The translations under genes were made by a program, and so were the position numbers. The notes below the pieces were generated by a model, which saw only the letters and a program-made list of their open reading frames with translations, was not told where the DNA came from and ran no database searches. A DNA stretch of 34,921 bases from a virus (Duplodnaviria; Caudoviricetes): positions 1-34,921 of IMG/VR virus record IMGVR_UViG_3300011435_000013. The stretch is one strand, 5' to 3'. Shown piece by piece: positions 124-26,479 of this stretch. Within the stretch, counting starts at the first letter, position 1. Every line of letters starts with the position of its first letter.

Positions 124-465
124 AACGCCAACGTCGACGATCTCGTGCTCTATCTGAGCGTCGCCTCTTCGTCCAATGCCTCTTTCGAGATATCGAAAGA
201 TATCACGCTCGACCCGCTTCCCGCCGACGCCTTTAACGTGCTCTATGACGGCAACGTCAACGCAGGACAAACGCTCTATCTCGACTCCGGGCGCTGGCTG
301 GCGACAAAGAACGGCATCGGCGTCTGGCCCGATATCGTCTTTCAGGAGCTGCACTCTTGCGCAGGACTCTTTCGACTGCGTCCCGGCGCAAACCCCGTCA
401 AGATAGATTGGAGCGGTACGGGTGCCGTCTCGCTGCGATACGTCTTTTACGACAAATGGCGGTGA
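1..465 (+). CDS. 3' part of putative distal tail protein (Dit-like); the gene starts at 34469 and wraps through the circular join (~264 aa)
   Basis: Frame is continuous from ATG 34469 through 34798 into position 1 (NFVWQRVTMRF...). Lies directly after the tape measure gene; C-terminal LRPGANPVKI...YDKWR resembles Dit proteins. Confidence 0.7.
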   Translation, partial: NFVWQRVTMRFRLPSALWNGTAHDTTLSISDGVPVTLTNGGNANVDDLVLYLSVASSSNASFEISKDITLDPLPADAFNVLYDGNVNAGQTLYLDSGRWLATKNGIGVWPDIVFQELHSCAGLFRLRPGANPVKIDWSGTGAVSLRYVFYDKWR

Positions 466-469
466 GCAG

Positions 470-3400: not shown

Positions 3401-6208
3401 GGCACGACGACGACGACGGGTTCGCTGCGTCTCTATATCCAAAAGAGCGGCGGCGCGGCGGTCGTCGTCTTTTACGTCGACGGCGCCTCGATGTATCTGT
3501 CTGCGAATTGTCTGCCGTCGGCGCACGGCGCGATGACGACCAACGAAGGCAGCGACGCTTATAGTTGGACGGGAGCGGCGCACGGCAGCACGACGACGAT
3601 TCTCAAGACGGGGCTGGTCTACCCGTCCACGTCGCCAATCCACACCGTCGGTGCGAATGGCTCTTTCGGCGCTTGGGTGCGTCTGCCGTGGGCGGGTTCG
3701 GGTTCGGGTTCGCTCGTGCACTACGTCTTTACCGCGGGCAACAATAATTTGTCGCTGCGCTTCGACGCGTCGGGACAAGTCATCTTTCAGGCGGGAGGCT
3801 CGGACGCGACGCCTCACGCGATTACGCTCGATACGCAGTGGCATCTCTATATGGTCACATGGGCCGACGACACGAATCTCGTGCAGCTCTGGTATGACGG
3901 CGTTGTCATCGCGTCGCACGCTTACGTCGGCCCGACGACTTCTAGCGATATGTACATTGGCTGTAACACCGCAGGCGACGCGCAGCTCGACGGGCAGATC
4001 GACCATGTGATGAACGTCTCACGCGTGCTCGACGCCGAAGAGATGCTCGCGATTGCGACCGCCGACGGCCCCGCGTTTGCGTTTCGCTCAGTCTTCAATC
4101 TGCGCTTTGGACGCAATCGTTTCAGCTTCGACGATGAGGGCTTTTGGGGAACGGGCGCGAGCGGGCGGCGCTTAATCGGAATCTATGCGGGCGTAGACGG
4201 CGCGCCTTCGACGACAAAGTCGTGGGGTAACGTCAATCTGAGCGAAGGGGATATCCTCTTCGGCCAGAAAGCGACGCTTGGCGGCGGCTGGATGCACTTC
4301 GACCAGGCGGTGACTGCGCTCGGCGAGACGCCGCGCATGGCGTGGGGCTATGACGGCGTAGAAGTCTTGCAGCTCGACACCGGAGGGGCGACGCTCAACG
4401 GCGTACTTGACCTTTCGGCGACGGGCGGAATCTTTCAGGGAACCGGCACGTTTGCAGAGCCCGACGACGCGCTCAAGATATACAACAATAGCGGCGTCGG
4501 TAACATCGAGCTTTGGGTCGATCTTGTCAAAGAGGCGTGGCTTGACGCGCAGGGCTTCGCCGTGCGCAGGCCCGTCTTCGAGGGCGACTATTCGACGCTC
4601 AACAGTTATAAGTTTATGAGCGGCTCGGCGACTGTGGGCGGCGTGACGGGTCTGCTCTCGAATAGCTCGACGCAGAATAACGCTATCCTGTGGGCCGAAG
4701 ATACGACGAGCGGGCGGCAGGCAGTCGCCGCGGCGCGCGCTTACGGCACGTCGGCCAACGTCTACGCCGAGATCGTGGCCACGCGGCGCGGCACGGGCGC
4801 ACGCGTCGGCTTCGTGACGATCTCGGCGCTGGCGGCTTCGACGCTGCTCAACGTCGGAGCCGATCAAAGCGACTTCTACGGCGCGCTACACGCGACGGGA
4901 GCCGCAGACTTCGACGGCACGCTCAACGCAGACGGGGTCGTCACCTTCGGCAGCACGCTCAACGTCGTCGGCGCACTGAGCGCAGCGAGTCTCGCCGTCG
5001 GGAGCGTCGTGCTGACCGGCAATCTGACCGTGCCGAATGCCATGCGCATCAACGTCGAAACGCTGCGCGCGATAGACACGACGGGACTGCTCTTTCAGAA
5101 CGCGGCGGGCACGACGGGTATGTTTATCTCGAATGCGGGGAACGTCGTCGTGCCGACCGGCCAGAAATTCGCGACCGACGCCGTCGCTGCGCTCAGTGCG
5201 GCGGGCCTGCTCTTGAGCGACGACGCGAATGATCCGGGCGTGTTTGTGGCCGACCTGGGTGCGGTGGCGGTCGGTCATCTCTCGCCCGATTCGGGAACGC
5301 GTTTCCATGCGAAGGGGTCTAGCGGTTTACTGACGACTGCGCCATTTAAATTTGAAACCACGCTAGGAGGTAGTCTAGGCTCGACGCGCGCCGTGCTGTC
5401 ACTGAAAGCGACGACGACCGGCGTGGCGAGTGCGGCATTTGGGCCGCGCATGATCTTCGAGCTGAACGACTCCGACACGAGCGGCGTCAACGTCATCGCT
5501 GCACTCGCCGGAGTGCGCGACGGGGCAGACAATAGCGGGCGGCTCGTCTTCTCGGCGGCGGCCGCGGGCGTGCTGGTCGACGTGCTGACCTTGCGGGCCG
5601 ATAGTACGATTGTCTTGGGCGGGCCGGTAAACAGTCAGGTAGCAGGCACGGTTTCGCTGATAGTGGATTCACCGGCGTCGCCGACGGGCGATATTCTCCG
5701 CGTGCTACGGGCGACGGTGGAAAGGTTTACGATCACGAAAGAGGGATGGGGCAAGTTTGTCTCGACCGCCGCGTCGGGCGGCGGCGTAGACGACGTAGGA
5801 GCGCGGCTGATATTGCAGAGTGTGAAGGGGAGCGCCGGGGCCGCGTACGATATGGCCGGGCAACTTCGCTTCATGGCTAAGAATTCGAGCAGTGTCGACA
5901 AAGTCTTCGTAGACGTAAACGGGCAGGTAGACGTGGCGACGGCGGGCAGCGAGAGGGGCGGGCTATACATCAATACGCAGCACGGCGGGGCCGACGCGAT
6001 TCCGTTTGCGGCGGTGGGGGCGAATGTGCGCATGGCGTCTAGTTCGCTGTCCGCCGTCAACTTCCACGGGACGAAAGGCGTAATTTTCATCGAGAATCGA
6101 GCGACAGCCCCTAGCCCCGCGAATCCGCCGTCTAACGGAATCTTCCTCTACGCCGAAGGGGGGGTGCTAAAATACATGGATTCGAGTGGTAGTGTCTGGA
6201 CTGCGTAG
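470..6208 (+). CDS. Large tail-tip/adhesin protein (~1912 aa): baseplate-hub-like N-terminus, Gly-rich repeats, CBM-like and LamG-like domains
   Basis: Follows Dit; likely ATG at 470. Repeats VAVDATVVRTSR..GxGLxGGG; TNLFTNPTAE (CBM-like); GAWVR...QWHLYMVTW...LWYDG...LDGQIDHV (LamG-like). Confidence 0.8.
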   Translation: MRAWVEVFESDGVASSVTDGPIYQVRSWRQLSLLNGAGNFSCVLNALDERAASLIHPLSVLRCKVLDIDDYLPSVERVKTLGTVIVHSVSWRVVPDGTVDLVVSGADSLYDLTKVLVEQTTLTEDETLPHDALMDRYAPPAWGWSGAYANPVALQFSYETLLDALGQVSEVNGDRFRGTRDGFALSWISSVNGHLAAPNMPTIVASLDPQVVLTDAPSGALLGTNRDTLLATSLEIGEDGYNIATHCFAFGSGIGINRLHLNYATHWPDDSLISAGNYTDELGIEWQRHATGMLINLTDAVIIGTRYVHKYWPQIVPASVNTPDYNVAGNTLMKFALSYMRSVRRATKVYRATIVKPMSVSPNGYVGNYASLVYVRGTTDGIPVYENVEALLVTEAEESIDERGVYTVRLTMIDAERPPKTESQYILEMLRTNSMALKNDQFTSQDLGTSEAPLRVVYSESIVSSGGIPLSGSEWEYSGNMLVDANAGSDTIVQIANQGAGRADLYVDRNIVLGGTVNGVDIASLVGSGHPAATGGDGIDVDGAQVVAVDATVVRTSRSVATGDGLSGGGNLSANRTLTVDTSVVRTSRSIVAGTGLTGGGFLSADVTLNVIGGDGITANANDVAVDATVVRTSRQVIAGAGMTGGGALSADVTLNVIAGNGIVVGANDVAVLRATPDSGLTFVSGGLALGAPGAVSALTTAAVTTTTHVHPVIAANDVGTIAPGVETLLKATGAGALTLGSLDVTGSANILQSLYAAASGFQVLHHTAGGAHAHVLVNPSGDPVVIDEQFGMDIYDNLRVRGYIVGNLTLQVRDMDPVIPFDGAFPLESNYTGSTLGSGGQAGRAATGCRMPIFRPGRFGKAVQITSAGTNLFTNPTAEIDDTSYANTGSATRTVVTTHSYFGAKSIRVQTTSGAFDGLVAIGPTHGSAQTYSAIVWIERTEIVADLIVGLREATATQIAFTTIPKRLGWQPVSVSGTTTTTGSLRLYIQKSGGAAVVVFYVDGASMYLSANCLPSAHGAMTTNEGSDAYSWTGAAHGSTTTILKTGLVYPSTSPIHTVGANGSFGAWVRLPWAGSGSGSLVHYVFTAGNNNLSLRFDASGQVIFQAGGSDATPHAITLDTQWHLYMVTWADDTNLVQLWYDGVVIASHAYVGPTTSSDMYIGCNTAGDAQLDGQIDHVMNVSRVLDAEEMLAIATADGPAFAFRSVFNLRFGRNRFSFDDEGFWGTGASGRRLIGIYAGVDGAPSTTKSWGNVNLSEGDILFGQKATLGGGWMHFDQAVTALGETPRMAWGYDGVEVLQLDTGGATLNGVLDLSATGGIFQGTGTFAEPDDALKIYNNSGVGNIELWVDLVKEAWLDAQGFAVRRPVFEGDYSTLNSYKFMSGSATVGGVTGLLSNSSTQNNAILWAEDTTSGRQAVAAARAYGTSANVYAEIVATRRGTGARVGFVTISALAASTLLNVGADQSDFYGALHATGAADFDGTLNADGVVTFGSTLNVVGALSAASLAVGSVVLTGNLTVPNAMRINVETLRAIDTTGLLFQNAAGTTGMFISNAGNVVVPTGQKFATDAVAALSAAGLLLSDDANDPGVFVADLGAVAVGHLSPDSGTRFHAKGSSGLLTTAPFKFETTLGGSLGSTRAVLSLKATTTGVASAAFGPRMIFELNDSDTSGVNVIAALAGVRDGADNSGRLVFSAAAAGVLVDVLTLRADSTIVLGGPVNSQVAGTVSLIVDSPASPTGDILRVLRATVERFTITKEGWGKFVSTAASGGGVDDVGARLILQSVKGSAGAAYDMAGQLRFMAKNSSSVDKVFVDVNGQVDVATAGSERGGLYINTQHGGADAIPFAAVGANVRMASSSLSAVNFHGTKGVIFIENRATAPSPANPPSNGIFLYAEGGVLKYMDSSGSVWTA
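2080..2490 (+). repeat. Degenerate intragenic tandem repeats in the tail adhesin
   Basis: Three units of VD[AT][TS]VVRTSR.[VI].[AT]G.G[LM][ST]GGG.LSA; DNA repeat gcagacgtgacgctcaacgt at about 2282 and 2420. Confidence 0.8.
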
Positions 6209-7399: not shown

Positions 7400-7725
7400 G
7401 GCTGCGCCTTCTCTCGCTGCTGCTCGGCGAGACGACGCAGCACGTCTTTCTGCAATGCGACGTGCGTCTGCCTCATCTCTTCGCTATAGTCTTCCCAAGC
7501 CGTGAGATGCGGGAAGCGCAGCCGCCACGACTCGCCCGTCGCTTTGGCAAGGGCAAGCGCTGCGTCGTCGCCCTGCGGCCAGTGCGCGCGCTCCGCTTCT
7601 AGGGAAGCGGCATAATCAGCAAGCCCCGCCGTTATCATGTCGCGACTGTCAATGTGCCTACGATTCCGCGCAATCGCTATTTCTTTTGCCCATTTTTCCA
7701 GCGGGGTTTTTTGCTCGTCGCTCAT
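7396..7725 (-). CDS. Hypothetical protein containing WPQGDDAA motif
   Basis: ATG 7725 overlaps the lysin stop; 109 aa. Confidence 0.6.
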   Translation of the reverse strand: MSDEQKTPLEKWAKEIAIARNRRHIDSRDMITAGLADYAASLEAERAHWPQGDDAALALAKATGESWRLRFPHLTAWEDYSEEMRQTHVALQKDVLRRLAEQQREKAQP

Positions 7726-9125
7726 TCGGCTAGCCCCGTCACTTCGAGCAGCTCGGCGACTCGTCGCACGTGGCCGCGCCAAAATTTGTCCTCATAGGCG
7801 GGCATTTTGGCGTAGACGTTGAGACGACGAGCGACGAAGCGAGCGGGGTCGGGTCCGACTTCCGACACCCATGCTTTCGCCGCGCCGACGCCGTGCAGGA
7901 CGGCGGTATCGAAGAGCATGAGACAAAGCGGCCACGCGACGCCGTCGGCTCCGCTCGCTTGCCAGTAGTCGCGATAGTAGATCGCGTCGGCTTCGGCCAT
8001 CGTCAAGTGCACGATATCGAGATCGGGATAGCTGCACGCAGAGATTCCGTACTTTGTGCCTTTCAGCTCGCCCACCCCTTCTCTACACCCCGTCCAATTC
8101 CCGATATCGTCGGGGTCGTTGGAATAGCCGCCTTCCCACTTGCGCACGAAAGCTCGACTGCGCTGCCAATCTTTGTCGCTGTGCGGCGGCTCAGTCGGCG
8201 GCTGCACGACGGGCGGCTCGACGGGCTTGGGCGGCTGGATGATTGTCGGCAAGTCGAGAAAATAGGGGTGCGCTTCTTGCGTGTCGAAAGATTCCCACGA
8301 GTTATCCCGATAGTCGGTTGCGAAGGGAAGCACAGCGAGAATGCGAGAATCGAGTCGTGCGAGATAGTATGCGAAGTGCTCGCCGTACCCCTGCGGCGAG
8401 ACGTTGCCGCGCCAGCCGCGATTGCCGCCTTCGTTATTCCAGCGCACGATATCGACGTAATTATCGACTCCGCTCTCGCCGATGATGATCGGGACGTCCC
8501 AGTCGCATTTGTTGATGCGACCCGCCCACCAACCCCACCCGTCCTGAGGGCCAGTGTCGTACCAATATTCGTGCACGTCCATCACGTGGTCGCCGCGCTT
8601 GATTGCGTCGTAGACTGCACGATAGGGCGACCAGTCGGGCGGCGTCTCTGCGCCTTTGTTATTCGGCCAGCCGACGCCCCATTGAAACGCCGACGCTCGC
8701 AGAGCAAACGCAGCGCACTCGTCGAGAAAAGCGACGTTATAGCGCGTGATCGCGTCGGTCGTCCCTCCCTGATTCGGCTCATTGACGCCGCCGACGAGCA
8801 AGAGCGCCGACGGCGGGAAAGCGAGATTGCGCTCAGTCGCTTCTCTGCGCAGGCGCGTGATCTCCCTGTCCCATTCTTGAGCGTGACGCTTGCCCGTCCC
8901 TTCCGGGTCTTGATTCATTGAGCGAAGCTGCTCGCCGCTGCCGTCGTCGAGCCACCAATAGCGAAGAAAGACAATCGCACGCGGCGCGGCCGCATGTACG
9001 CTTGCGACGTGCTGCACGTCGGGATCTAAAATGCGCACGACGGGCGGTTGCAGTCGTGCGATGTATTGCAGATCGGGCGGGCGGTTGTGACCGGGCGACC
9101 AGTAGACGCCTAACTTGCTGCTCAT
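7722..9125 (-). CDS. Endolysin: N-terminal GH-A-like TIM-barrel glycosidase, Pro-rich linker, C-terminal GH108 lysozyme
   Basis: VNEPN / DVHEY / IIIGESG motifs; linker QPPKPVEPPVVQPPTEPP; WEGGYSNDPDD..G...TKYGIS and A.AIYYRDYW typical of GH108. Confidence 0.8.
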   Translation of the reverse strand: MSSKLGVYWSPGHNRPPDLQYIARLQPPVVRILDPDVQHVASVHAAAPRAIVFLRYWWLDDGSGEQLRSMNQDPEGTGKRHAQEWDREITRLRREATERNLAFPPSALLLVGGVNEPNQGGTTDAITRYNVAFLDECAAFALRASAFQWGVGWPNNKGAETPPDWSPYRAVYDAIKRGDHVMDVHEYWYDTGPQDGWGWWAGRINKCDWDVPIIIGESGVDNYVDIVRWNNEGGNRGWRGNVSPQGYGEHFAYYLARLDSRILAVLPFATDYRDNSWESFDTQEAHPYFLDLPTIIQPPKPVEPPVVQPPTEPPHSDKDWQRSRAFVRKWEGGYSNDPDDIGNWTGCREGVGELKGTKYGISACSYPDLDIVHLTMAEADAIYYRDYWQASGADGVAWPLCLMLFDTAVLHGVGAAKAWVSEVGPDPARFVARRLNVYAKMPAYEDKFWRGHVRRVAELLEVTGLAE

Positions 9126-9652: not shown

Positions 9653-10090
9653 CTATGCCTCCTGCGCCCCGGCCAGTAGCGCGAGTGCGGCCAGCGCATG
9701 TTCGTACAACGTGACCGTCTTGCCCGGCAGCCACGTCTCATACCACGCATCTCTCAACTGCTCCGCCGCCTCGTCGCCCTGCGGCCACGTCTGCGCGGCA
9801 TTCTGCAACTCGTCGCGTACTGCCTCCAGCGCGGCGATTCGCCTCTCTGCCAACTCGACACATCGTTCGCACGAATCGTATTCTGCCACCGTCTGCTGCG
9901 CCTGCGCGTCCATCGCATCGGCGGCGGCGCGGACTTCGGCCATCTCGCCCTCTATGTACCTCCTGTGCGACTCCTCGTCTCGGTCGAGGTAATCAACCGC
10001 CCAATAGTGCGCGCAATAGCTAAACTCGCCGCCCACGCCTATCGCCCGCTCCACCAGCCCGCGCACCGGGCCGTGCTGTTTGTCGCTCAT
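9653..10090 (-). CDS. Hypothetical protein with coiled coil and WPQGDEAA motif
   Basis: ATG 10090 overlaps the rep stop; 145 aa. Confidence 0.6.
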   Translation of the reverse strand: MSDKQHGPVRGLVERAIGVGGEFSYCAHYWAVDYLDRDEESHRRYIEGEMAEVRAAADAMDAQAQQTVAEYDSCERCVELAERRIAALEAVRDELQNAAQTWPQGDEAAEQLRDAWYETWLPGKTVTLYEHALAALALLAGAQEA

Positions 10091-11322
10091 AGCGAGACTC
10101 CCGCCAAAGCGAATTCGACGACGACGCGCTTGTGCAGCACGCTCGACAAAGAGCGGCGAATGCCGACGCCCATGCGGTCGCGAATCAGCGAGAGCATGGC
10201 GTCGGCGGGCAGCGTGACGAGATAGGCGCAGCAGCCGTCGACTTCGCCAGCGGGCGCGATGGATGCGGCGCGAATCGGCTCGGTGTACGTGTGACTGAGT
10301 CGCGAGTCGCACATCTCGACGAGCACGACGTGCCACGCGGCGGCGAGAGCGTCGTCGGCGGGGCAGATCGAAGCGACAGTCTCGACGACGTGCTCGACGA
10401 CCGCTTCGTCGGCATAGAAGTCTTCGTCTTCGCTCAGAGCGCTCGACCAAGCGCTTTCCTCGAAGTCATAAGGCACGTGGTCGCGATACCACGCGCTTTG
10501 TCGAAACGCAGCGCTCACGGGCGGCGCTGCGACGTGCTGCTCGATACGATGCACGAGCAAGCCCGTCGAGACTGCGCCATCCTCGTAAGCGTGCATCCAC
10601 GCGCCGATCTGTCTGAGCGCTTCGCTGCGTGAGCAGAGTGCAGCAAGAGCGCGTGCTTTGACGGCCCAGATACCCGCCGCGATGAGCAGCTCGACGACTT
10701 GCTCGTCGACTTCGTGCTCGTGCGTCTTTGTTTGGATGGTTGTTTGTTTAACATCAACTTCAATAACTGATTGGGTAGGAAACAAACAACCATCCATTCG
10801 CGTACGTGTGACTGCACGCGCAGATTCGGTACGTACACGCGCAGTTTCAGCGCGTGGGATGACCGTTTCAGCGCGTGGGATGACCGTTTCAGCGCGTGGG
10901 ACGACCGTTTCAGCGCGTGGGACGACCGTTTCAGCGCGTGGGACGACCGTTTCAGCGCGTGGCGTCTCTGCGTCGATCTGCGCAGCGTGCTCGTCGTGCG
11001 GCACGTCGTCGCTCGACGGCTCAATCTGCGCGCAGATTTGGTACGTCGACGCGCTGATTCTGCGCGCAGGGAACGCGGCAATGGTGACGTATACGTCACC
11101 GTTGATGCTATAGTGCAGCACGTTTGCGGTCTGCAAGTCGCTGAGATGACGACGTGCGGCGTTGAGATTCGAGCAATTTGTCACGGCGAAGAGATCGTCG
11201 AGCGTGAGACGCACGAAGCCATTGTCGTCGCTGGCAACGTCGAGCAGCTCACGGGCGACTCGATAGAGGGTGGGTGACAAGTCTGCGCTCTTGATGGCGG
11301 CGAGTGCGGCGGCTTTGCTCAT
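10087..11322 (-). CDS. Replication initiator: N-terminal wHTH-like region, internal iteron repeats, C-terminal DnaA domain I-like region
   Basis: N-terminal ..LTLDDLFAVTNCSNLNAARRHLSDLQTANVL..; (PRAETV[VI])n repeats; C-terminal AWHVVLVEM...TYTEPIR...IRRSLSSVLHKRVVVEF resembles DnaA_N. Confidence 0.7.
   Translation of the reverse strand: MSKAAALAAIKSADLSPTLYRVARELLDVASDDNGFVRLTLDDLFAVTNCSNLNAARRHLSDLQTANVLHYSINGDVYVTIAAFPARRISASTYQICAQIEPSSDDVPHDEHAAQIDAETPRAETVVPRAETVVPRAETVVPRAETVIPRAETVIPRAETARVRTESARAVTRTRMDGCLFPTQSVIEVDVKQTTIQTKTHEHEVDEQVVELLIAAGIWAVKARALAALCSRSEALRQIGAWMHAYEDGAVSTGLLVHRIEQHVAAPPVSAAFRQSAWYRDHVPYDFEESAWSSALSEDEDFYADEAVVEHVVETVASICPADDALAAAWHVVLVEMCDSRLSHTYTEPIRAASIAPAGEVDGCCAYLVTLPADAMLSLIRDRMGVGIRRSLSSVLHKRVVVEFALAGVSL
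10733..10796. repeat. Perfect 17-bp inverted repeat around a 30-bp AT-rich spacer (candidate origin unwinding element)
   Basis: tggatggttgtttgttt 10733-10749 and aaacaaacaaccatcca 10780-10796. Confidence 0.85.
10844..10962. repeat. 21-bp tandem repeats (5 full + 1 partial), candidate iterons
   Basis: Unit gtttcagcgcgtggga[t/c]gacc starting at 10844, 10865, 10886, 10907, 10928 and 10949. Confidence 0.9.
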
Positions 11323-13321: not shown

Positions 13322-13428
13322 AGTGCGCTCGCTTTCTGCTAGGATCGTCCGAATCTGTACATAACTTTCTGGGGCGGCGCTGCGTCATGCTCTCTACACC
13401 TATCAACAACACCGCCCCGGAGAATCAA

Positions 13429-14343
13429 ATGGACTTGCGCACTCTGCTCGACCGCTTTCTCGTCGCCAAAGCCGCCGCAGGATTGTCGCGGCGTAGTATC
13501 GCATGGTACGAAGCTCAGATCGTGCTCTATGTGCGCTGGCTGGGGCGCGTCGGCGTGCGCAGCGAGCGCGCCTTTGTCGCTTCGACGGTCGAGACGTATC
13601 TCGCCGAGCAGCGAAAAGCCGAGCTGCGCCCCGCAACGCTCGCTGCCCGATATCGTGCGCTCTGCGTATGGTGTAACTGGCTTGTCAGTCGTAAGCTGCT
13701 GGCCGTCTCGCCGATGGACGAAGTCGCCGCGCCGCGCGTGCCGAAAGAGGCAATCGAATACGCTCGCTTCGACGAGTATCAGCGGCTTTACGAATCGATC
13801 TCCGGTCACGGCTGGATGGCGCTGCGCGACCGCTGCATTCTGTCGATTCTTTTCTGGAGCGGCTTGCGCGTCTCTGAGCTGGTCGCTCTCGCAGTGCACG
13901 ACGTTGACGCCCGCGCCCGCCTGATTACCGTGCGGCGCGGCAAGGGCGGCAAGGGGCGCGTCGTGCCCTGCCCGCCTGAACTGAACGGGATACTTGTCGG
14001 CTATCTCTATGCGCGCCCGCCCTACGACGGCGATGCGCTCCTCGTGGGCAACGACGGGCAAGACGGCGTGCGCGGGCCGCTCAAAGATTCGGGAGTGCGC
14101 ATCATGCTTCGTCGTCGCTGCAAAGCCGCCGGTCTGCGCGTGCTCACGCCGCATGACTTCCGGCACGGCTTCGCGATGGCGCTGCTCAATAACGGAATGG
14201 AGATGAGCGCCATCTCGACGGCGATGGGACACGGCAGCGTCAAGGTGACGGAAAGTATCTATGCTCGCTGGTTGACCGAAGGGTTGACACGAGAATATGA
14301 CGCGGCGCGGGCACGCATCAAGAGCAAGAGCCGCCCCGGATGA
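13429..14343 (+). CDS. int: Tyrosine recombinase/integrase (XerC/D-like, 304 aa)
   Basis: Catalytic motifs GLRVSE, KGGKGR, HDFRH, MGH, ESIYA; RBS ggaga before ATG 13429. Confidence 0.93.
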   Translation: MDLRTLLDRFLVAKAAAGLSRRSIAWYEAQIVLYVRWLGRVGVRSERAFVASTVETYLAEQRKAELRPATLAARYRALCVWCNWLVSRKLLAVSPMDEVAAPRVPKEAIEYARFDEYQRLYESISGHGWMALRDRCILSILFWSGLRVSELVALAVHDVDARARLITVRRGKGGKGRVVPCPPELNGILVGYLYARPPYDGDALLVGNDGQDGVRGPLKDSGVRIMLRRRCKAAGLRVLTPHDFRHGFAMALLNNGMEMSAISTAMGHGSVKVTESIYARWLTEGLTREYDAARARIKSKSRPG

Positions 14344-14882: not shown

Positions 14883-14920
14883 TGCGGCGTCATAATACCA
14901 CGCCGCATTTACGGCGTCAA
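14883..14920 (-). promoter_or_regulatory. Leftward promoter for the RHH gene, overlapped by operator-like repeats
   Basis: TTGACG - 17 bp - TATTAT with TG extension; half-sites tgcggcgt 14883, acgccgca 14900, tacggcgt 14910. Confidence 0.7.
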
Positions 14921-14965
14921 TACGTCTTTGTTTGCGCTGTGTAACGTTTTCGTCTGCGTTTCGTA

Positions 14966-14994
14966 TTGACAGTGTATTTACAAAATGATATAAT
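14966..14994 (+). promoter_or_regulatory. Perfect-consensus early rightward promoter
   Basis: TTGACA 14966-14971, 17 bp spacer, TATAAT 14989-14994. Confidence 0.85.
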
Positions 14995-15049
14995 GTAGTC
15001 GTAAGGCAATTCAACGAAGCAAACCACCAGACAACGAGGAGACGGGAAC

Positions 15050-18888: not shown

Positions 18889-18917
18889 TTGACAGAGTCG
18901 GCGTGACGTGCTAACGT
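18889..18917 (+). promoter_or_regulatory. Candidate late-operon promoter
   Basis: TTGACA - 17 bp - TAACGT with TG extension. Confidence 0.6.
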
Positions 18918-18945: not shown

Positions 18946-18992
18946 GCGGGGTTGTGCTCCAGTGCTCAGAGCGCAATCCCGCTTTTTCGTTT
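18946..18992 (+). terminator. Terminator in the late leader
   Basis: 14-bp stem gcggggttgtgctc / gagcgcaatcccgc followed by tttttcgttt. Confidence 0.75.
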
Positions 18993-19011
18993 GCCCGGAG
19001 ACAAACGCCTC

Positions 19012-19167
19012 GTGGAAGGTCTCGTCGTCGCAATTCTCATCATCTTCATTCTTGCCGCGCTCGTGTCGTATCTGCCCATCGACGCAGAGTTAAAGCGCTG
19101 GATGATCGTCGCGCTGCTCGTGATCCTCATCGTCTATCTGCTACGGTGGGGCGTGCCGGGGATATGA
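19012..19167 (+). CDS. Small two-TM membrane protein (holin candidate)
   Basis: 51 aa; LVVAILIIFILAALVSYL and WMIVALLVILIVYLL. Confidence 0.55.
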   Translation: MEGLVVAILIIFILAALVSYLPIDAELKRWMIVALLVILIVYLLRWGVPGI

Positions 19168-19754
19168 GCGCAGCGCCCCGTCGCGGTTCTGCAATTTTGG
19201 GGCCGGAAACCGTCCCAGGGTTGAGCGCAGTCTCGCCCAGGTTCCGCAACCGCATCGTCGAGCAGCGTGTCGTCACCGCCGACGAGCTGCGCACGAACCC
19301 GCTTAACTGGCGCAAGCATCCCGCCCATCAAGCGGCTGCGCTGCGCGGCGTGCTCGACGAGGTCGGAATCGCAGCGCCGCTCACGGCCTACTATAGCGAA
19401 GAGGCAAACGGCGCGCTCACGCTCATCGACGGGCATTTGCGTCTGAGCACAGGCAGCGCATGGCCGACCGACATTCTCGACGTTTCAGACGCCGAAGCGC
19501 GTCTCTTGCTCGCCGCGCTCGACCCGCTCGCGGCGCTGGCCGAAGTCGACGCTGCTGCGCTCGACGCTCTGCTGCGTGACGTGCAGACTGAGGACGCCGC
19601 CGTCTTAGAGCTGCTCACGGCGCTCGCCGCTCAGGCCGGGTTGATTCCGTCGCCCGTCGAGCCGCCGAGCGACTTTGCCGAATACGACGAAGAGATCGAG
19701 ACGGCCTATCACTGTCCCAAGTGCGGCTATACGTGGAGCGGTAAGCCTAAATGA
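19164..19754 (+). CDS. ParB-like N-terminal domain protein with C-terminal CPKCG motif
   Basis: NPLNWRKHP..Q...L...L.EVG, LIDGHLRL, CPKCGYTW; type commonly found beside phage DNA MTases. Confidence 0.75.
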   Translation: MSAAPRRGSAILGPETVPGLSAVSPRFRNRIVEQRVVTADELRTNPLNWRKHPAHQAAALRGVLDEVGIAAPLTAYYSEEANGALTLIDGHLRLSTGSAWPTDILDVSDAEARLLLAALDPLAALAEVDAAALDALLRDVQTEDAAVLELLTALAAQAGLIPSPVEPPSDFAEYDEEIETAYHCPKCGYTWSGKPK

Positions 19755-20956
19755 TTCTTACGAAAGAAGCATCTGTCGCAAAGCCGCCCTATCGCGTGCC
19801 GTCGATGGCCGAGATTCGTGCGACTCCGCGCAACGGCTATACGGCGATCTCGACATTCTCCGGCTGCGGCGGCTCGTCGCTCGGCTATAAGATGGCGGGC
19901 TATAGCGTGCTCTGGGCCAACGAGTTCATCCCCGCCGCTCAGGAGACGTACCGAGCGAATCACCCCGATACGCTGCTCGACGAGCGAGATATTCGCTCGA
20001 TTACGCCTGCGGAGATTCTCGACACGCTCAAGCTCGAAGTCGGCGATCTCGACCTGCTCGACGGCTCACCGCCGTGCGCTTCTTTCTCGACTTCCGGCAA
20101 GCGGGAAGCCGGGTGGGGCAAAGTCAAGCCCTACTCAGAGACGACGCAGCGCGTGGACGATCTCTTCTTTGAGTATGCGCGTCTCGTGCAGGGGCTGCAA
20201 CCGAAAGTCTTTGTCGCCGAGAACGTTTCGGGACTGATCAAAGGCACGGCCAAAGGTTTCTTTCTGGAGATTCTTGCCGCGCTCAAAGCGTGCGGCTATC
20301 GGGTGCGCTCGAAGCTGCTCGATGCGCAATGGCTCGGCGTGCCGCAGGCGAGACAGCGCATCATCTTTGTCGGCGTGCGTGACGACTTGCAGCTCGACCC
20401 GGTCTTTCCTGCACCCCTGTCTTACCGCTATACGGTACGCGACGCGATCCCCTGGATTCGCTCGATTCGTCTCGGCGGCTCGCCCGATAACTGGCAGTCT
20501 GCGAATCGACCTTCTGGCACGGTCGTGCAGAGCGACGGCGCACGCGTGAGCGAGACAGCATACTTGAGTTCTTACATGGTCGAGGCCGATACCGACATTG
20601 CTCGATATGCTATCGGCGACGAGTGGGACAAGCTGCGCCCCGGCCAGACGAGCGAAAAGTATCGCAGTCTTTCGCTGCCCGCGCTCGACGCGCCCTGTCC
20701 GACAATCACCTGCCCGTCGAATGGCACATTCTCGCCGACTGGGTTTGTGAGCGCCGCATCTGTCACTCACCCGACTGAGAAGCGCAAATTCTCGATTGCA
20801 GAGCTTAAGCGCATCTGTGCTTTTCCCGACGACTTTATTCTCACCGGAACCTACGCGCAGCAATGGGAGCGACTCGGAAGAGCCGTGCCGCCCGTAATGA
20901 TGGCGGCGATTGCGCGCACGATTGCAACGGAGATACTCGACAAATGCAAACGTTGA
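19751..20956 (+). CDS. C5-cytosine DNA MTase-fold enzyme, predicted carboxymethyltransferase
   Basis: Motif I FSGCGG, IV GSPPCASFS, VI ENV, VIII Q.RQRI, IX R..S..E..RI..FP, motif X LGRAVPP (Asn replaced by Arg377). Fold call is strong; carboxymethyl activity is inferred. Confidence 0.9.
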   Translation: MILTKEASVAKPPYRVPSMAEIRATPRNGYTAISTFSGCGGSSLGYKMAGYSVLWANEFIPAAQETYRANHPDTLLDERDIRSITPAEILDTLKLEVGDLDLLDGSPPCASFSTSGKREAGWGKVKPYSETTQRVDDLFFEYARLVQGLQPKVFVAENVSGLIKGTAKGFFLEILAALKACGYRVRSKLLDAQWLGVPQARQRIIFVGVRDDLQLDPVFPAPLSYRYTVRDAIPWIRSIRLGGSPDNWQSANRPSGTVVQSDGARVSETAYLSSYMVEADTDIARYAIGDEWDKLRPGQTSEKYRSLSLPALDAPCPTITCPSNGTFSPTGFVSAASVTHPTEKRKFSIAELKRICAFPDDFILTGTYAQQWERLGRAVPPVMMAAIARTIATEILDKCKR

Positions 20957-21663
20957 CTAGAGACGAGACGACGCCGGGAACAAAGTGGGCTTTCGACGAT
21001 TCCGTCGCCGCCGCTTTCGACGATATGCTCGCCCGCTCCATCCCGCAGTACGAAGTCATGCGTCAAACGTGCTTCGACCTCGCGACGCGCTACGCTCAAC
21101 GCAATACGGCGATTGTCGATCTCGGCTGCTCACGTGGCGAGGCGATGGCTGCGCTTCTCGATAAGTTTGGCGTCAATAATCATTTTGTGGGCGTCGAAGT
21201 CTCCGACGCAATGCTCGACGCAGCCCGCTCTCGCTTCCGGGGCCTGATCGACGCCGGGGTCGTCGAGATTCGCAAGCTCGACCTGCGCTCAGACTATCCC
21301 CAGGTTGCCGCATCCGTGACGCTCTGCGTGCTCACGCTGCAATTCACACCGATTGAATACCGGCTGCGCATTATGCAGGACATCTATGACCACACCGTCG
21401 AGGGCGGCGCGCTGCTGCTCGTCGAGAAGGTGCTCGGCTCCGGCGCAAAGATCGACCGCACGATGGTCGATCTCTATTACCGACTCAAAGCCGACAACGG
21501 CTACAGCGAAGAGCAGATCGAGCGCAAGCGTCTGAGTCTCGAAGGCGTGCTCGTGCCGATGACGGCGCGCTGGAACGAAGAGCTATTGTCGATGGTCGGC
21601 TTTCGACATGTCGATTGCTTTTGGCGCTGGCTCAACTTCGCCGGTTGGATTGCGCTTCGCTAG
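20944..21663 (+). CDS. cmoA: Carboxy-S-adenosyl-L-methionine synthase homolog
   Basis: W.FD..VA..F.DM..RSIPQY, DLGCS.G, TLQF, EK, K..NGYSE.QI..KR..LE.V, GF......W.NF match the CmoA pattern along the full length (239 aa). Confidence 0.88.
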   Translation: MQTLTRDETTPGTKWAFDDSVAAAFDDMLARSIPQYEVMRQTCFDLATRYAQRNTAIVDLGCSRGEAMAALLDKFGVNNHFVGVEVSDAMLDAARSRFRGLIDAGVVEIRKLDLRSDYPQVAASVTLCVLTLQFTPIEYRLRIMQDIYDHTVEGGALLLVEKVLGSGAKIDRTMVDLYYRLKADNGYSEEQIERKRLSLEGVLVPMTARWNEELLSMVGFRHVDCFWRWLNFAGWIALR

Positions 21664-21680: not shown

Positions 21681-22043
21681 TTGACACGGCGTAAAAAAAA
21701 GGCGACGAAAGAGCAGATCGCCGCCGCACTGAGCGCCAGCGCTGGGAACGTCGCTCTTGCCGCCCGCAGCCTGGGCGTGGGCCGCTCGACGCTCTTTCAT
21801 CGCATCAAAGCGTCGGCGTCGCTGCGTGAGATCGTCGAAGACGAGCGCGAGTCGCTCGTCGATTACGCAGAGTCGAGGCTCAAGACGAAGGTGCTGGAAG
21901 GCGATATGACCGCCATTATCTGGACGCTCAAAGCGTCGCCCGCCGCCAAAAAACGGGGCTGGGGCGAGCGACACGAAGTCACCGACGGCGACGGCAAGCC
22001 GACGCCGATTGCAGTTCTGAGAATGCCCATCGACGAGTTATGA
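21681..22043 (+). CDS. terS: Terminase small subunit (Fis-like HTH N-terminus)
   Basis: AL....GNV.LAARSLGVGRSTLF.RI; GDMTAIIW.LK...RGW.ER.EV; directly before terL. Confidence 0.8.
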   Translation: MTRRKKKATKEQIAAALSASAGNVALAARSLGVGRSTLFHRIKASASLREIVEDERESLVDYAESRLKTKVLEGDMTAIIWTLKASPAAKKRGWGERHEVTDGDGKPTPIAVLRMPIDEL

Positions 22044-23407
22044 GCACAGCGAAGACTTACGCCATCATCGAAGCGCCCGACGACTCCGCGTTCGGCTATA
22101 AAGGATACGGGGCTGCCTACGCGTTCTGGTGCTACAAAGGCCCTGAAGTCGTGCTCGACGGCCCGTATCAAACGGGCAAGACGATAGGCGCGCTCAACAA
22201 ACTACATGCGCTCTGCGCAAAGTATCCCGGCGCACGTGCGCTCATGGTGCGCCGCACCTATTCGAGCTTGAAGCATACCGCAGTCGTCTCTTACGAAAAC
22301 AAAGTGCTGCCCTATCCGCCGCATCATCCCAAGTGTGGCGTCGTGCCGATTGGCGGCAACTCGCCAGAGCGGTACGTCTACCCGAATCGCTCGACGATCA
22401 CGCTCGGCGGGCTGGATAATCCCGCGAAGTTCTTGAGCGGTGAATACGATTATATCTACGTCAATCAACTCGAAGAGCTGCCGCTCGACAGTTATGAGCT
22501 GCTCACGGGCAGAGCGACGGGGCGGGCGGGGAACGTGCCCTACCCGCAGGTAATGTCCGACTGCAATCCCGACAAGCCGACGCACTGGATATTGCAGCGT
22601 GAGCGGCTCAAGCGCTTCAAGTCGAAGCACGAAGACAACCCCACCCTCTACGATCCCGATACGGGCGCGCAGACTGCGCTCGGCGCGACGACAATGACAG
22701 CGCTCGACGCATTGACCGGCGTGCGGCTCAAGCGCGGCCGTCATGGCCTGTGGGTCGGCGTCGAAGGGATGGTCTATGAGGACTTCGACAATACCGTGCA
22801 TCTGATTGACCGCTTCGACATTCCCGCCTCATGGCGGCGTATCTGCTCAATCGACTTCGGCTACACAAACCCCTACACCGCTCAGTATTGGGCGATTGAC
22901 GAAGACGGGCGCATGTATCTCTATCGTGAGCTATACAAGACGCAGACGACGGTGCGCGACCATGCGACGCAGATGAAAGCGCTCTTGCAGAAAGACGAGC
23001 GCATCTCCGCATACATCGCCGACCACGACGCCGAGGACAGGGCGACGCTGCGACAGAACGGCATCGAGACGATTGCCGCCGACAAGCGCATCAAGGTCGG
23101 CATTGAAGCTGTGCAGTTCAGACTCAAGACGCAGGGCGACGGCAAAGCGCGTCTCTTCGTGCTGCGTGATTCGCTCGTCGAGCGTGACGCCGCGCTCGCG
23201 CTGCGCTTCAAGCCGACGAGCGTCGTCGATGAGTTTCCCGCCTACGCCTGGCAGCCGACCAACGATAGCAGAGCAGCGAAAGAGGAACCTATCGACGTGG
23301 ATAATCACGGACTCGACGCACTGCGTTATGCAGCGATGTATCTCGACGGCGACCAGGGGACGATCAAGATCGGGAAGGTAGATTTCTATGCCAGCCGCCG
23401 ACGGTAA
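22040..23407 (+). CDS. terL: Terminase large subunit (PBSX-like)
   Basis: Walker A GPYQTGKT, DCNP..PTHW, SIDFGYTNP, NHGLDALRYA. Confidence 0.93.
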   Translation: MSTAKTYAIIEAPDDSAFGYKGYGAAYAFWCYKGPEVVLDGPYQTGKTIGALNKLHALCAKYPGARALMVRRTYSSLKHTAVVSYENKVLPYPPHHPKCGVVPIGGNSPERYVYPNRSTITLGGLDNPAKFLSGEYDYIYVNQLEELPLDSYELLTGRATGRAGNVPYPQVMSDCNPDKPTHWILQRERLKRFKSKHEDNPTLYDPDTGAQTALGATTMTALDALTGVRLKRGRHGLWVGVEGMVYEDFDNTVHLIDRFDIPASWRRICSIDFGYTNPYTAQYWAIDEDGRMYLYRELYKTQTTVRDHATQMKALLQKDERISAYIADHDAEDRATLRQNGIETIAADKRIKVGIEAVQFRLKTQGDGKARLFVLRDSLVERDAALALRFKPTSVVDEFPAYAWQPTNDSRAAKEEPIDVDNHGLDALRYAAMYLDGDQGTIKIGKVDFYASRRR

Positions 23408-24722
23408 GAGCAGCGTCACCGGAGCGTCGATTTTCGGCTTGCCCGAATATCGACCGCACGCTGCGCAGTTTCACAGCCGCCTGAACCGGCTCATCAAGCA
23501 TCGACGCTATGCCGACGGCACAATCTACGCCGACAGCGCCTTCAAGCTCGCACACAAGCTCTATGCGCAGACGACTGCGCTCTTCAACATCCTGAGTCGA
23601 GCCGTCGATCTCGACATTGCGCTCGTGCCGGGCGTTATGCAGCCGTGGGAGCTTGACAAGAAGACGCCCGCCGCGATTGTCGAAGCGCAAGCGCTGCTCT
23701 ATGAGTGGTCGGGTTGGGACGTGGGCGCAGACGACTGGCTCGAAGACGGGACGGAGACAGGCGAAGCGCTGCTCAAGATTGTTCCCGACGTTGAGCGCGG
23801 CGTCGTCAAGATACTGCGTCTCAAGCCGGAGCACGGCTACTTGTGCAAGCACGCGCAGGAAGGCGAAGTCGTCGATCTCTTGCTCGTCGTCGATAGAGCG
23901 ATGAGCGACGAGCAGGGTGTCACTTTCGAGTACGCCGAAGCGATTACGCCGCTTGAGATTCGCACGTATCGCAACGGCGAGCCGCACAGCTACGGCGGCA
24001 ACCCCAACCGTTACCCGAACCCGCTCGGCTTCGTTCCCGCCGTGCCGGTCAAGAATGACAGCGAATGCAGACCCACGTTTGGCAAAGTCATGGCGCAGAT
24101 TGACCGTGTGAATGAGATGGCGTCGTATCTGGGCGATATCATCGGGCGGCACGCTGAGCCGGTGTGGGCCGCGTTCGGAGCGTCGAAAGTCGAAGAGGCT
24201 GAAAAGGGCGGCTCAGTCTGGTATATGCCGAAAGAGGCGAAGCTGCAAGCGATTCTCGCCGAGATCGACGTTCCCGGCACGCTCTCTTTCGTCGAGAGCG
24301 TCAAGAGCGAAGCGAAGAGCGCGCTGCCGGAGTTGTCATTCGACGACTTGCGCGCCAAAGACCAGATCGCGACCGAAACCTTAGAGATACAACTCATCGA
24401 GCTGGACGTAAAAATCTGGCGTATGCGCAGACGATACGACGCCGCGCTCGTCGATGCGCATAGGATGGCGGCGGCGGCTGCGGTTGCCGTCGGCGTCGAT
24501 GGGCTTGCGCCGCTGCTCGCGCCGCACAGCTTCGACTACAAACGCCCTGTACGTCCGGTGAGCGAGTTTGATGCGATACGACTCGAAGAGGCGCGACTTG
24601 CGCTCAAGATGCAACAGGCGATGAGCAGCAGCGAGAGCATGAGCGTCGCAGCGCCATCACTACGCAATAGCGAAGTCGAAGTCGATGCCAACGAAGTCGA
24701 TATAGAGGAGAGCAACGCATGA
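23388..24722 (+). CDS. Portal protein
   Basis: 444 aa directly after terL; NPLGFVPAV.VKN motif of SPP1-type portals. Confidence 0.75.
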   Translation: MPAADGKSSVTGASIFGLPEYRPHAAQFHSRLNRLIKHRRYADGTIYADSAFKLAHKLYAQTTALFNILSRAVDLDIALVPGVMQPWELDKKTPAAIVEAQALLYEWSGWDVGADDWLEDGTETGEALLKIVPDVERGVVKILRLKPEHGYLCKHAQEGEVVDLLLVVDRAMSDEQGVTFEYAEAITPLEIRTYRNGEPHSYGGNPNRYPNPLGFVPAVPVKNDSECRPTFGKVMAQIDRVNEMASYLGDIIGRHAEPVWAAFGASKVEEAEKGGSVWYMPKEAKLQAILAEIDVPGTLSFVESVKSEAKSALPELSFDDLRAKDQIATETLEIQLIELDVKIWRMRRRYDAALVDAHRMAAAAAVAVGVDGLAPLLAPHSFDYKRPVRPVSEFDAIRLEEARLALKMQQAMSSSESMSVAAPSLRNSEVEVDANEVDIEESNA

Positions 24723-25096: not shown

Positions 25097-26479
25097 GTGG
25101 ACGCAGTGACAAGGAGCTTTGTCGCAACAAACCTACTTCGTTCGCATGGCGGCGGCGGCGGTGCATTCTCCCCGCTCGACCTCGCCGCGCTCACCGGCTG
25201 GTGGGATTTTTCCGACGCGCCGACCGTGTATGAGGATACCATCGCCACCAATCCTGCCGAAGCGGATGACGGCGTGGCCTATCTGGGTGACAAGTCGGGC
25301 GACGGGCGGCATTTGACGCAGGGCACGGCGGGCAGCCGACCGGCGTGGAAAGCGGCAATCCAGAACGGACTCAGTATCGGGCGCGGTGACGGTGGCGACA
25401 TCCTCACACGCGCCAGCGTGACGGGGAGTGCTCTGTTTGGCACGAACGTCGGCACGGTGGTGCTGGTGCTCAAGCATGGGCCAGGCACGGACAACTTCGC
25501 TTTCGCCTGGATGAACGACGCGAGTAACGCCGTCAACATATTCTGCACCTACAGCGACACGATTTACTTCGACTTCGGCCAGTATGACGCAGGCGGGCGC
25601 ATCACAGTGGCGCAGCCGGTGGGATGGGATAACAATTGGCACGTCGTCGTCTGTCACCGCAAATTGGGGGCGGGGCGCATCATTGTGGACGGCGTGATCC
25701 TGAGAGAGGCAGAGTTTACCGATACGCTCAACAATGCTATAGCTGGCACGCTACAATTGATGGGTTACGGCGGCGGGCCTAATTTTACTGGCGACATGGG
25801 CGAAGCGTTTGCGTTCAATGACGGTTTGCTCGTGACAGAAATCAACGACCTGTGCAACTATCTCGCGACCAAGTGGGCCGCAACGTGGCCCGACTTGCGT
25901 GGCCCGTGGACGGTGGTTTGCGAGGGTGACAGTTTGACGCTTGGTACCGGGGCCGTTGCCGCGTCATCCTATCCCGCGCAGTTGGCGACCCTGCTCGGCA
26001 CGTCTTACGGCGTGATAAATCTGGGTGTCGGCAGCGAAACGATAGACGATATGGCGACGCACGCGCAGCTAACGGACGGCATGGGGTGGTCGGCTGCGGG
26101 CAAGAACATCTGCGTTGCGTGGGCCGGAACGAATGATATTTACGGGGCAGAGTCGGGGGCCGACGCCTACGCAGACTATGTTGCTTATTGTGCGGCACGG
26201 CAGGCGGCGGGCTTTCTGGTGGTGGCGGTGACGATGCTACCGCGCTCAGGCGGCTCCCCTCCCGGCGACCTGGAGACACAGCGCGGCACGTTCAACACCT
26301 CCATTCGCAACAATTGGGCGACCTTTGCCAACGCTTTGGCGGACGTGGCGGGGAGCAGTCTTATTGGCGATGCGGGCGACGAGCTAAATGCGACCTACTA
26401 CGCAGACGCTACCCATCTCAACGCCACTGGCTACGGCGTCGTGGCGGGCATTGTGCAAACGGCAATAGGGACGCTGTGA
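25097..26479 (+). CDS. LamG-like domain plus SGNH/GDSL hydrolase
   Basis: W.DFSD...GDKSGDGRHLTQ....RP lectin-like N-terminus; blocks GDSLT, NLGVG, GTND, D.THLN..GY. Confidence 0.8.
   Translation: MDAVTRSFVATNLLRSHGGGGGAFSPLDLAALTGWWDFSDAPTVYEDTIATNPAEADDGVAYLGDKSGDGRHLTQGTAGSRPAWKAAIQNGLSIGRGDGGDILTRASVTGSALFGTNVGTVVLVLKHGPGTDNFAFAWMNDASNAVNIFCTYSDTIYFDFGQYDAGGRITVAQPVGWDNNWHVVVCHRKLGAGRIIVDGVILREAEFTDTLNNAIAGTLQLMGYGGGPNFTGDMGEAFAFNDGLLVTEINDLCNYLATKWAATWPDLRGPWTVVCEGDSLTLGTGAVAASSYPAQLATLLGTSYGVINLGVGSETIDDMATHAQLTDGMGWSAAGKNICVAWAGTNDIYGAESGADAYADYVAYCAARQAAGFLVVAVTMLPRSGGSPPGDLETQRGTFNTSIRNNWATFANALADVAGSSLIGDAGDELNATYYADATHLNATGYGVVAGIVQTAIGTL

What the first reader, a model, noticed from the sequence alone, without database searches (positions are those of the whole stretch)
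19751..21663. Phage CmoA plus C5-MTase pair: predicted DNA 5-carboxymethylcytosine pathway
Seen: a full-length CmoA homolog, including the Arg of KRxxLE (equivalent to E. coli R199), overlaps the end of a C5-cytosine MTase-fold gene. There is no cmoB and no intact tRNA in the genome. Established: CmoA converts SAM plus prephenate to carboxy-SAM, normally used by CmoB for tRNA cmo5U. Inference: the phage repurposes this tRNA-modification cofactor to carboxymethylate cytosine in its DNA, probably as anti-restriction armour that also differs from 5mC. I recall a recent report of such a pair in a cyanophage, so check the literature for novelty; its presence in a small temperate siphovirus packaging operon would still be notable.
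Basis: partly seen in the sequence, partly recalled or inferred. Interest (0 to 1): 0.92.

Follow-up and report, generated by a model that had tools for sequence, protein, structure and literature searches.

The report
Phage CmoX–CmoA carboxymethylcytosine gene pair
Just before its DNA-packaging genes this temperate phage carries two genes whose key residues match a system published in 2025, so it likely puts carboxymethyl groups on cytosines in its DNA as predicted protection from host nucleases; it is a new member of a known system.

Summary
Observation confirmed; the reading is probably right but already published. 19751–20956 encodes a C5-methyltransferase-fold protein whose best PDB match, by sequence and by predicted fold, is CmoX of Synechococcus phage S-B43 (8YF3; Yang et al. 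2025, PMC12783734). All nine residues named in that paper are kept, including SPPC and the carboxylate-binding Arg (R377 = R350), the two criteria used to,615 candidates. 20944–21663 encodes a CmoA homolog that keeps the E. coli Arg199 equivalent but scores below the CmoA family cut-off. The complete 34.9-kb genome gave no match for CmoB, tRNA, CmoY ligase or chorismate mutase. The pair sits in a ParB-like–CmoX–CmoA–terminase block, an order also found in Moraxella phage Mcat8; CmoA lies beside the CmoX relative in 76 of 80 viral loci. Likely product: 5-carboxymethylcytosine left uncapped. Small extras: the target-recognition loop is atypical, so the motif may not be GC; and the likely host class (Anaerolineae) showed no CmoB and only prophage-type CmoA, which would explain why the phage carries its own. 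No chemistry was tested here. This scan found the same pair before on other DNA.

The parts
19164..19754 (+). ParB N-terminal-like protein with a C-terminal CPKC motif (196 aa); first gene of the cassette, stop overlaps the cmoX start
   Evidence: PHROG 498 N-terminal part E=1.8e-8 and ParB-like phrog_620 E=1e-3; no Pfam hit at E<=0.01; C-terminus 63% identical over 27 aa to TurkishDelight gp122; a ParB-like gene was scored in 78 of 80 related loci
19751..20956 (+). CmoX-type DNA cytosine C5-carboxymethyltransferase (predicted), 401 aa; F36, E58, F59, D80, S106-P-P-C109, R377
   Evidence: Top PDB hit 8yf3 by sequence, E=5e-68, and by fold, E=7e-30; 9 of 9 named SpCmoX residues identical, 41.7% identity over 348 columns
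20944..21663 (+). CmoA-type carboxy-SAM synthase (predicted), 239 aa; Y36, D59, G61, S63, D113, E161, R196, E200
   Evidence: TIGR00740 E=1.6e-47, below cut-off; phrog_4752 E=3e-72; alignments to 4gek/1im8; residue census
21681..22043 (+). Terminase small subunit (HTH); start TTG 21681 chosen by eye from a GGAG upstream; the listed ORF begins at 21615
   Evidence: phrog_4044 terminase small subunit E=1.4e-4, HTH_8; sequence
22040..23407 (+). Terminase large subunit (context)
   Evidence: TIGR01547 E=5e-18; PHROG terminase hits
23388..24722 (+). SPP1-type portal protein (context)
   Evidence: PF05133 E=1.5e-7
13426..14343 (+). Tyrosine integrase (context: temperate lifestyle, host hint)
   Evidence: PF00589 E=6e-29; best homolog that carries an organism name is from Caldilinea sp., 54% identity

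Best explanation
The phage encodes a CmoA homolog predicted to turn SAM plus host prephenate into carboxy-SAM, and an overlapping CmoX-type enzyme predicted to transfer the carboxymethyl group to cytosine C5 in the phage DNA, likely leaving uncapped 5-carboxymethylcytosine that would block host restriction enzymes. Shown here: the genes, their order, the conserved catalytic and cofactor residues, and no detectable CmoY, CmoB or chorismate mutase gene. Shown in print for the homologs: Cx-SAM synthesis, Cys attack on C6, carboxymethyl transfer needing Arg350, no use of SAM, and protection from HhaI. Inferred: the same chemistry here; expression with the packaging genes late in infection; the phage's own CmoA is needed because the likely Anaerolineae host appears to lack the tRNA cmo5U genes; prephenate comes from the host; the ParB-like protein may steer the enzymes to DNA being packaged. 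The target motif is unknown and may differ from the GC of S-B43.
For: SpCmoX residues F25, E47, F48, D69, S95-P-P-C98 and R350 map to F36, E58, F59, D80, S106-P-P-C109 and R377. The motif VI/VIII residues E157, R201 and R203 are invariant in a 64-row alignment. The model (pLDDT 83.9) ranks 8YF3 first. PMC12783734: wild-type SpCmoX accepts only Cx-SAM, and R350N is inactive with either cofactor. Among the best 80 of 304 viral loci, 78 have Arg at the R377 column, 76 have a cmoA in the locus and 26 a CmoY-like gene; the single Asn variant (L068) has no cmoA in its 7.9-kb fragment. Pseudomonas phage U8's Asn-type MTase has none in its 5.7-kb locus. CmoA keeps the equivalents of Y39, D62, G64, S66, D117, E164 and R199. 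Its nearest tree neighbours L085, L025, L036 and L001 all sit beside CmoX. Class of G001 (L017, titled Anaerolineae): CmoB in 0 of 151 genomes, CmoA in 2 of 151, both beside ParB-type phage genes.
Against: Nothing was measured for these proteins. Identity to the characterised enzymes is modest (CmoX 41.7%, CmoA 28.4%). CmoA is below the TIGR00740 cut-off, and D89, N90 and N132 are replaced by E85, V86 and V129; the active SpCmoA also lacks the N90 and N132 equivalents. In the target-recognition loop, L309 stands where 52 of 64 rows have Arg/Lys, R305 where 43 of 64 have Phe, and a 7-residue insert follows; this could change specificity or lower activity. The 80 loci are kin, include near-copies and are often truncated, so the co-occurrence counts are not independent. 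CmoY was sought with only two proteins and two Pfam families, and many small ORFs have no family hit. The host is inferred from 50-65% protein identities, and the class sample had no genome scored as high quality.
Confidence: 0.8

Rival explanations
1. 5cxmC is made but is then capped (amide, ester or other) by an unrecognised phage or host enzyme, as in S-B43, where only the glycine amide was found in virion DNA.
For: S-B43 virion DNA held 5gcxmdC and no free 5cxmdC. CmoY-like genes come and go among close relatives, for example L025, which has the nearest CmoA by identity. Many small window ORFs have no family hit.
Against: No match to Asn_synthase or GATase_7, nor to SpCmoY or TurkishDelight gp124 (best E 5.8 and 1.8). 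The cassette genes abut with no room for a ligase. 50 of 80 related loci have cmoA without a CmoY-like gene.
Confidence: 0.09
2. The transferase is a weak or decaying enzyme because its target-recognition loop has drifted, so little DNA is modified.
For: It has lost the near-conserved Arg/Lys at 309 and Phe at 305. PMC2790894 says that changes in recognition loop 1 of hybrid C5-MTases led to inactive enzymes.
Against: Both frames are intact and all catalytic residues are kept. The 7-residue insert is shared with the closest homolog L025, which suggests a lineage trait. The cassette has the same dinucleotide make-up as the rest of the genome, which suggests long residence.
Confidence: 0.05
3. 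The MTase is an ordinary 5mC methyltransferase, and CmoA serves another purpose, such as draining host SAM or feeding a different acceptor.
For: CmoA homologs occur without CmoX, beside other transferases (L004, L017, L124) or in Alcaligenes phage Afa-NA1, which has no C5-MTase match in its whole record. SAM depletion is raised as a possibility in PMC12783734.
Against: Arg rather than Asn at motif X; wild-type SpCmoX takes only Cx-SAM; tight overlap and co-occurrence in 76 of 80 loci; no alternative transferase was found in this genome.
Confidence: 0.04
4. The chemistry is as predicted, but its main role is a packaging or regulatory mark at selected sites, not genome-wide armour. This does not exclude the best explanation.
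For: Position between a ParB-like gene and the terminase genes, the ParB-Tls locus proposed to link modification with packaging (PMC6536676, PMC4738411). The genome still lacks most GC-containing six-base palindromes.
Against: Two related prophages with about 50% identical capsid proteins have no such cassette in the stretches fetched (L127, L129), so packaging does not need it. The same palindrome avoidance occurs in chromosomal DNA of the likely host class (L128, L131). S-B43 modifies about 75% of its GC sites.
Confidence: 0.12

Closest known systems
CmoA-CmoX-CmoY system of Synechococcus phage S-B43 (Yang et al., Nat Commun 2025, PMC12783734; PDB 8YF3)
   Same: CmoA homolog plus a C5-MTase-fold enzyme with SPPC and the R350-equivalent Arg; no CmoB; ParB-like neighbour, as in many contigs of the paper's survey.
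   Different: No CmoY ligase; 35-kb temperate phage versus a 214-kb cyanophage; gene order ParB-X-A-terS versus A-Y-X; CmoA has the E. coli-like KRxxLE where SpCmoA has KEKELR; target-recognition loop differs, so the GC motif cannot be assumed.
Moraxella phage Mcat8 (KR093632) and Streptomyces phage TurkishDelight (NC_073473) cassettes (uncharacterised)
   Same: Mcat8 has the same order, ParB-like, CmoX-like, CmoA-like, small gene, terminase, portal, in a 41-kb genome. TurkishDelight gp123 is the closest cultured CmoX relative (58%).
   Different: TurkishDelight adds an amidotransferase-type CmoY; both have the other CmoA subtype, without Arg at the 199 position.
E. coli CmoA/CmoB tRNA cmo5U pathway (PDB 4GEK; PMC3663124)
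   Same: CmoA fold and the Arg199/Glu164 equivalents.
   Different: No CmoB or tRNA here; below the CmoA equivalog cut-off; the predicted acceptor is DNA cytosine.
ParB-Tls DNA-modification loci of phages and prophages (as described in PMC6536676, PMC4738411)
   Same: DNA-modifying genes lie between a ParB-like gene and the terminase genes.
   Different: The usual occupants are 6mA/4mC or 5mC methyltransferases; here it is a carboxymethyl pair.

Membership tests
CmoX (DNA cytosine C5-carboxymethyltransferase) | SPPC catalytic motif (S95-C98) | tested here: met
   S106-P107-P108-C109
CmoX | Arg at the SpCmoX R350 position (Asn in M.HhaI) | tested here: met
   R377 in ERLGRAVPP
CmoX | Cofactor-binding F25, E47, F48, D69 and C5-MTase fold | tested here: met
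   F36, E58, F59, D80; model ranks 8YF3 first, TM 0.81 by target length
CmoX | Forms 5cxmdC from Cx-SAM and does not use SAM | not testable with these tools
   Needs LC-MS; shown only for SpCmoX
CmoX | GC target motif (known for SpCmoX only; not a family criterion) | tested here: inconclusive
   Recognition loop differs; genome composition gave no usable signal
CmoA (carboxy-SAM synthase) | Arg199 salt bridge to the carboxylate; conserved Glu164 | tested here: met
   R196, E161
CmoA (carboxy-SAM synthase) | SAM-contact residues Y39, D62, G64, S66, D89, N90, D117, N132 | tested here: inconclusive
   5 of 8 identical; D89>E, N90>V, N132>V. The active SpCmoA also has E at D89 and lacks both Asn
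Bacterial CmoA equivalog TIGR00740 (tRNA pathway) | Score above the 193.3-bit cut-off | tested here: not met
   162.2 bits; filed as a phage-type CmoA homolog, not as the housekeeping equivalog
CmoA (carboxy-SAM synthase) | Makes Cx-SAM from SAM and prephenate | not testable with these tools
   Needs an enzyme assay
CmoA-CmoX-CmoY hypermodification (glycine amide) pathway | AsnB-like AMP-forming ligase CmoY | tested here: not met
   No match in the complete genome
tRNA cmo5U pathway | CmoB partner and tRNA substrate | tested here: not met
   No PF08003 match; no tRNA gene
ParB-Tls locus | Modification genes between a ParB-like gene and the terminase large subunit | tested here: met
   Gene order; the ParB call rests on weak PHROG hits and similarity to phage ParB-like proteins

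The most novel reading that the evidence does not exclude
The virion DNA of this temperate, likely Chloroflexota-infecting phage carries uncapped 5-carboxymethylcytosine as the final base, at a motif other than GC set by a remodelled recognition loop. That would be a natural case of free 5cxmC in a phage genome, which S-B43 did not show, and a carboxymethyltransferase of new specificity.
Probability: 0.3. Interest if true: 0.45.

Novelty: new member of a known kind. Interest (0 to 1): 0.22.

Why it matters
The chemistry is recent but published, with thousands of predicted members, so this locus adds little by itself. Its value is as a compact ligase-free test case. It could show whether free 5cxmC is a final base in nature, whether CmoX enzymes vary in target motif (the paper lists this as open, and it matters for enzymatic DNA labelling and sequencing tools), and whether a phage brings carboxy-SAM chemistry into hosts that appear to lack it.

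Tried and rejected
1) Reading the target motif from genome composition. CC/GG is depleted genome-wide (rho 0.59). At fourfold sites before a C the swap goes mostly to G, not T, which does not look like a deamination scar, though at twofold sites T is raised before C (0.61). Six-base palindrome avoidance also occurs in chromosomal DNA of the likely host class and in a phage without CmoX. Rejected as uninformative. 2) Single-sequence fold of CmoX failed (pLDDT 34.5); repeated with a 64-row alignment. 3) Own prephenate supply: no chorismate mutase (PF01817, PF07736). 4) Whether close relatives are in the paper's candidate list: six contig names gave no hit in four supplementary files, so this is open. 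5) Expression: no RNA holder listed. 6) The first tree run did not finish; the FastTree rerun used 94 of 95 rows, dropping the short L014, and has long-branch warnings for SpCmoA and TurkishDelight CmoA. 7) PMC7496830 passages gave no R199 data. 8) The side-lead transferase of L004 gave no PDB sequence match at E<=1. 9) No earlier notes on this genome.

Full report
Setting. The window is a whole phage genome: one 34,921-base contig with a 123-base terminal repeat, classed as 100% complete. It has a tyrosine integrase, an Erf recombinase, terminase, SPP1-type portal, capsid and tape-measure genes, and no tRNA. The host is not given. Three hints point to Chloroflexota, class Anaerolineae: the best integrase homolog that carries an organism name is from Caldilinea sp. 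(54%; its placement in that class is recalled); the best CmoA match in GTDB genomes is an Anaerolineae record (65%); and capsid relatives at 50-52% were found in 2 of 401 genomes of that class. This is an inference.

Observation. The two ORFs are as described. The C5-MTase runs 19751-20956 (401 aa). The CmoA homolog most likely starts at ATG 20944, overlapping by 13 bases, and ends at 21663 (239 aa). Upstream is a ParB-like gene (19164-19754) whose stop overlaps the MTase start; downstream come terminase small, terminase large and portal. The block is translationally tight, with no room for another gene. One public contig matches 19100-22100 with no differences, though it may be the source of this DNA.

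The known system. A search for 'carboxymethylcytosine' found Yang et al., Nat Commun 2025 (PMC12783734). I read parts 1-4 of 8 (abstract, introduction, results, discussion, part of the methods), further passages and part 1 of 2 of supplementary file 1. In Synechococcus phage S-B43, CmoA makes carboxy-SAM, CmoX carboxymethylates cytosine C5 in GC motifs and blocks HhaI, and CmoY adds glycine. Wild-type CmoX takes only Cx-SAM; R350N is inactive with either cofactor. The authors called 5,615 candidates by SPPC plus R350, with 4,257 CmoA, 2,251 ligase and 1,660 ParBc genes on those contigs. The words temperate, prophage and terminase do not occur in the main text. Searches for other papers on the phage system listed no second study; subscription papers are not covered.

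CmoX test. The top PDB sequence hit is 8YF3 (E=5e-68, next 6e-25). Aligned with SpCmoX from the S-B43 record, 9 of 9 named residues are identical: F36, E58, F59, D80, S106, P107, P108, C109, R377 (41.7% identity over 348 columns). A model from a 64-row alignment has pLDDT 83.9, and Foldseek ranks 8YF3 first. Both published criteria are met.

CmoA test. TIGR00740 matches at E=1.6e-47 but below its cut-off. Against E. coli CmoA (contact residues from passages of PMC3663124) Y39, D62, G64, S66, D117, E164 and R199 are kept; D89, N90 and N132 are not. The active SpCmoA also lacks both Asn and has Glu at the R199 position with an Arg four residues on. Of 95 collected CmoA rows, 37 have Arg there and 50 have Glu.

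Relatives. Of the best 80 of 304 viral loci, 78 have Arg at the R377 column, one has Asn (L068) and one is frameshifted (L036, whose second piece has GRAVPP). CmoA lies in the locus in 76 of 80, a CmoY-like gene in 26, a ParB-like gene in 78. L068 has no CmoA in its short fragment; three Arg-type loci (L095, L096, L100) also lack one nearby, all in incomplete contigs. These loci are kin and include near-copies. Among annotated phages, TurkishDelight has ParB-ParB-X-Y-A and Mcat8 has ParB-X-A followed by terminase and portal, the same layout as here. The position is the ParB-Tls locus (passages of PMC6536676 and PMC4738411). Two related prophages lack the cassette in the stretches fetched, and no cassette gene was scored in four terminase relatives, most of them short, so it is an accessory module.

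What is missing. No Asn_synthase, GATase_7, CmoB or chorismate-mutase match in the genome, and no tblastn match to two CmoY proteins. In the likely host class CmoB was found in 0 of 151 genomes and CmoA in 2 of 151, both beside ParB-type phage genes; these are samples of genomes of unstated completeness. That would explain why the phage carries CmoA.

What may differ. In the target-recognition region, position 309 is Arg or Lys in 52 of 64 rows (R295 in SpCmoX) but Leu here; position 305 is Phe in 43 of 64 but Arg here; a 7-residue insert follows PTIT and is shared with L025. By its spacing to the Thr of the T-L motif, 309 may correspond to the guanine-reading Arg240 of M.HhaI. That equivalence is recalled and not shown by a call; passages on the loops and on Arg240 are in PMC2790894 and PMC4090504. 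The motif may therefore not be GC. Composition did not settle it: GC-containing six-base palindromes are nearly absent (GAGCTC 0 versus 20 expected, GCATGC 0 versus 21) while AGCGCT and TGCGCA are enriched, but chromosomal DNA of the likely host class avoids many of the same sites.

Mechanism and verdict. Most likely, late in lytic growth CmoA makes Cx-SAM from SAM and host prephenate, CmoX transfers the carboxymethyl group to cytosine C5 through C109 with R377 holding the carboxylate, and the base stays uncapped and blocks restriction. Genes and residues are shown; chemistry, timing, motif and protective role are inferred. Interest is low, with a modest upside if the free base or a new motif is confirmed.

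Noticed in passing
L004:3452-6726 (= L114); also L011, L012, L017, L019, L115-L122, L124: Close CmoA relatives (up to 65% identical to the window's) sit beside a different transferase: a ParB-fused protein with DFGAG and (V/F)(L/M/F)NS(V/I)PF motifs that looks like an amino-methyltransferase, usually with a small HAD-like gene. All 9 loci carry cmoA; L004's 61%-complete contig has no C5-MTase match. It is a candidate N6-adenine or N4-cytosine carboxymethyltransferase, which PMC12783734 says its preliminary search did not find. CmoA partners are mixed on the tree. A search for 'carboxymethyladenine' with 'phage' listed two papers, seen as listings only. Already noted in this scan.
   Followed up: partly
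L108 (Alcaligenes phage Afa-NA1) and L109 (Erwinia phage Yoloswag): CmoA homologs without a neighbouring CmoX. Afa-NA1 has no C5-MTase match in its whole record and an annotated adenine methylase 2.5 kb away. Yoloswag has a CmoY-like gene next to cmoA and a C5-MTase-like gene about 14 kb away.
   Followed up: partly
window 1-34921: Strong genome-wide CC/GG depletion (rho 0.59; lower in only 1 of the loci of 6 kb or more compared) and near absence of many six-base palindromes, with AGCGCT and TGCGCA enriched. Cause unexplained.
   Followed up: partly
window 18889-18917: Seen by eye: TTGACA, 17 bases, TAACGT preceded by TG, upstream of the operon; not listed by the scanner. If constitutive, the cassette could be on in the lysogen. 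A 71-aa hydrophobic ORF (18952-19167) precedes the ParB-like gene.
   Followed up: no
window 14892-15014: A 12-of-12 sigma-70 consensus promoter (14966-14994, +) and promoter-like sites on the - strand, between small ribbon-helix-helix-like ORFs; probably the lysis-lysogeny switch.
   Followed up: no
window 7722-9125 (-): 467-aa lysin with a C-terminal glycosyl hydrolase 108 domain and an unassigned N-terminal 300 residues.
   Followed up: no
window 25097-26479 and 422-6208: A GDSL esterase/laminin-G protein among the head genes and a 1,928-aa laminin-G tail protein.
   Followed up: no
window 10087-11322 (-): Replication-initiator-like ORF with a tandem seven-residue repeat (PRAETVV/I, about six copies).
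   Followed up: no
CmoA homologs in L001-L122: Phage CmoAs fall into two subtypes: KRxxLE (Arg at the 199 position, 37 of 95 rows) and KELSL...QRP (Glu there, 50 of 95), which suggests the carboxylate-binding Arg has moved.
   Followed up: partly
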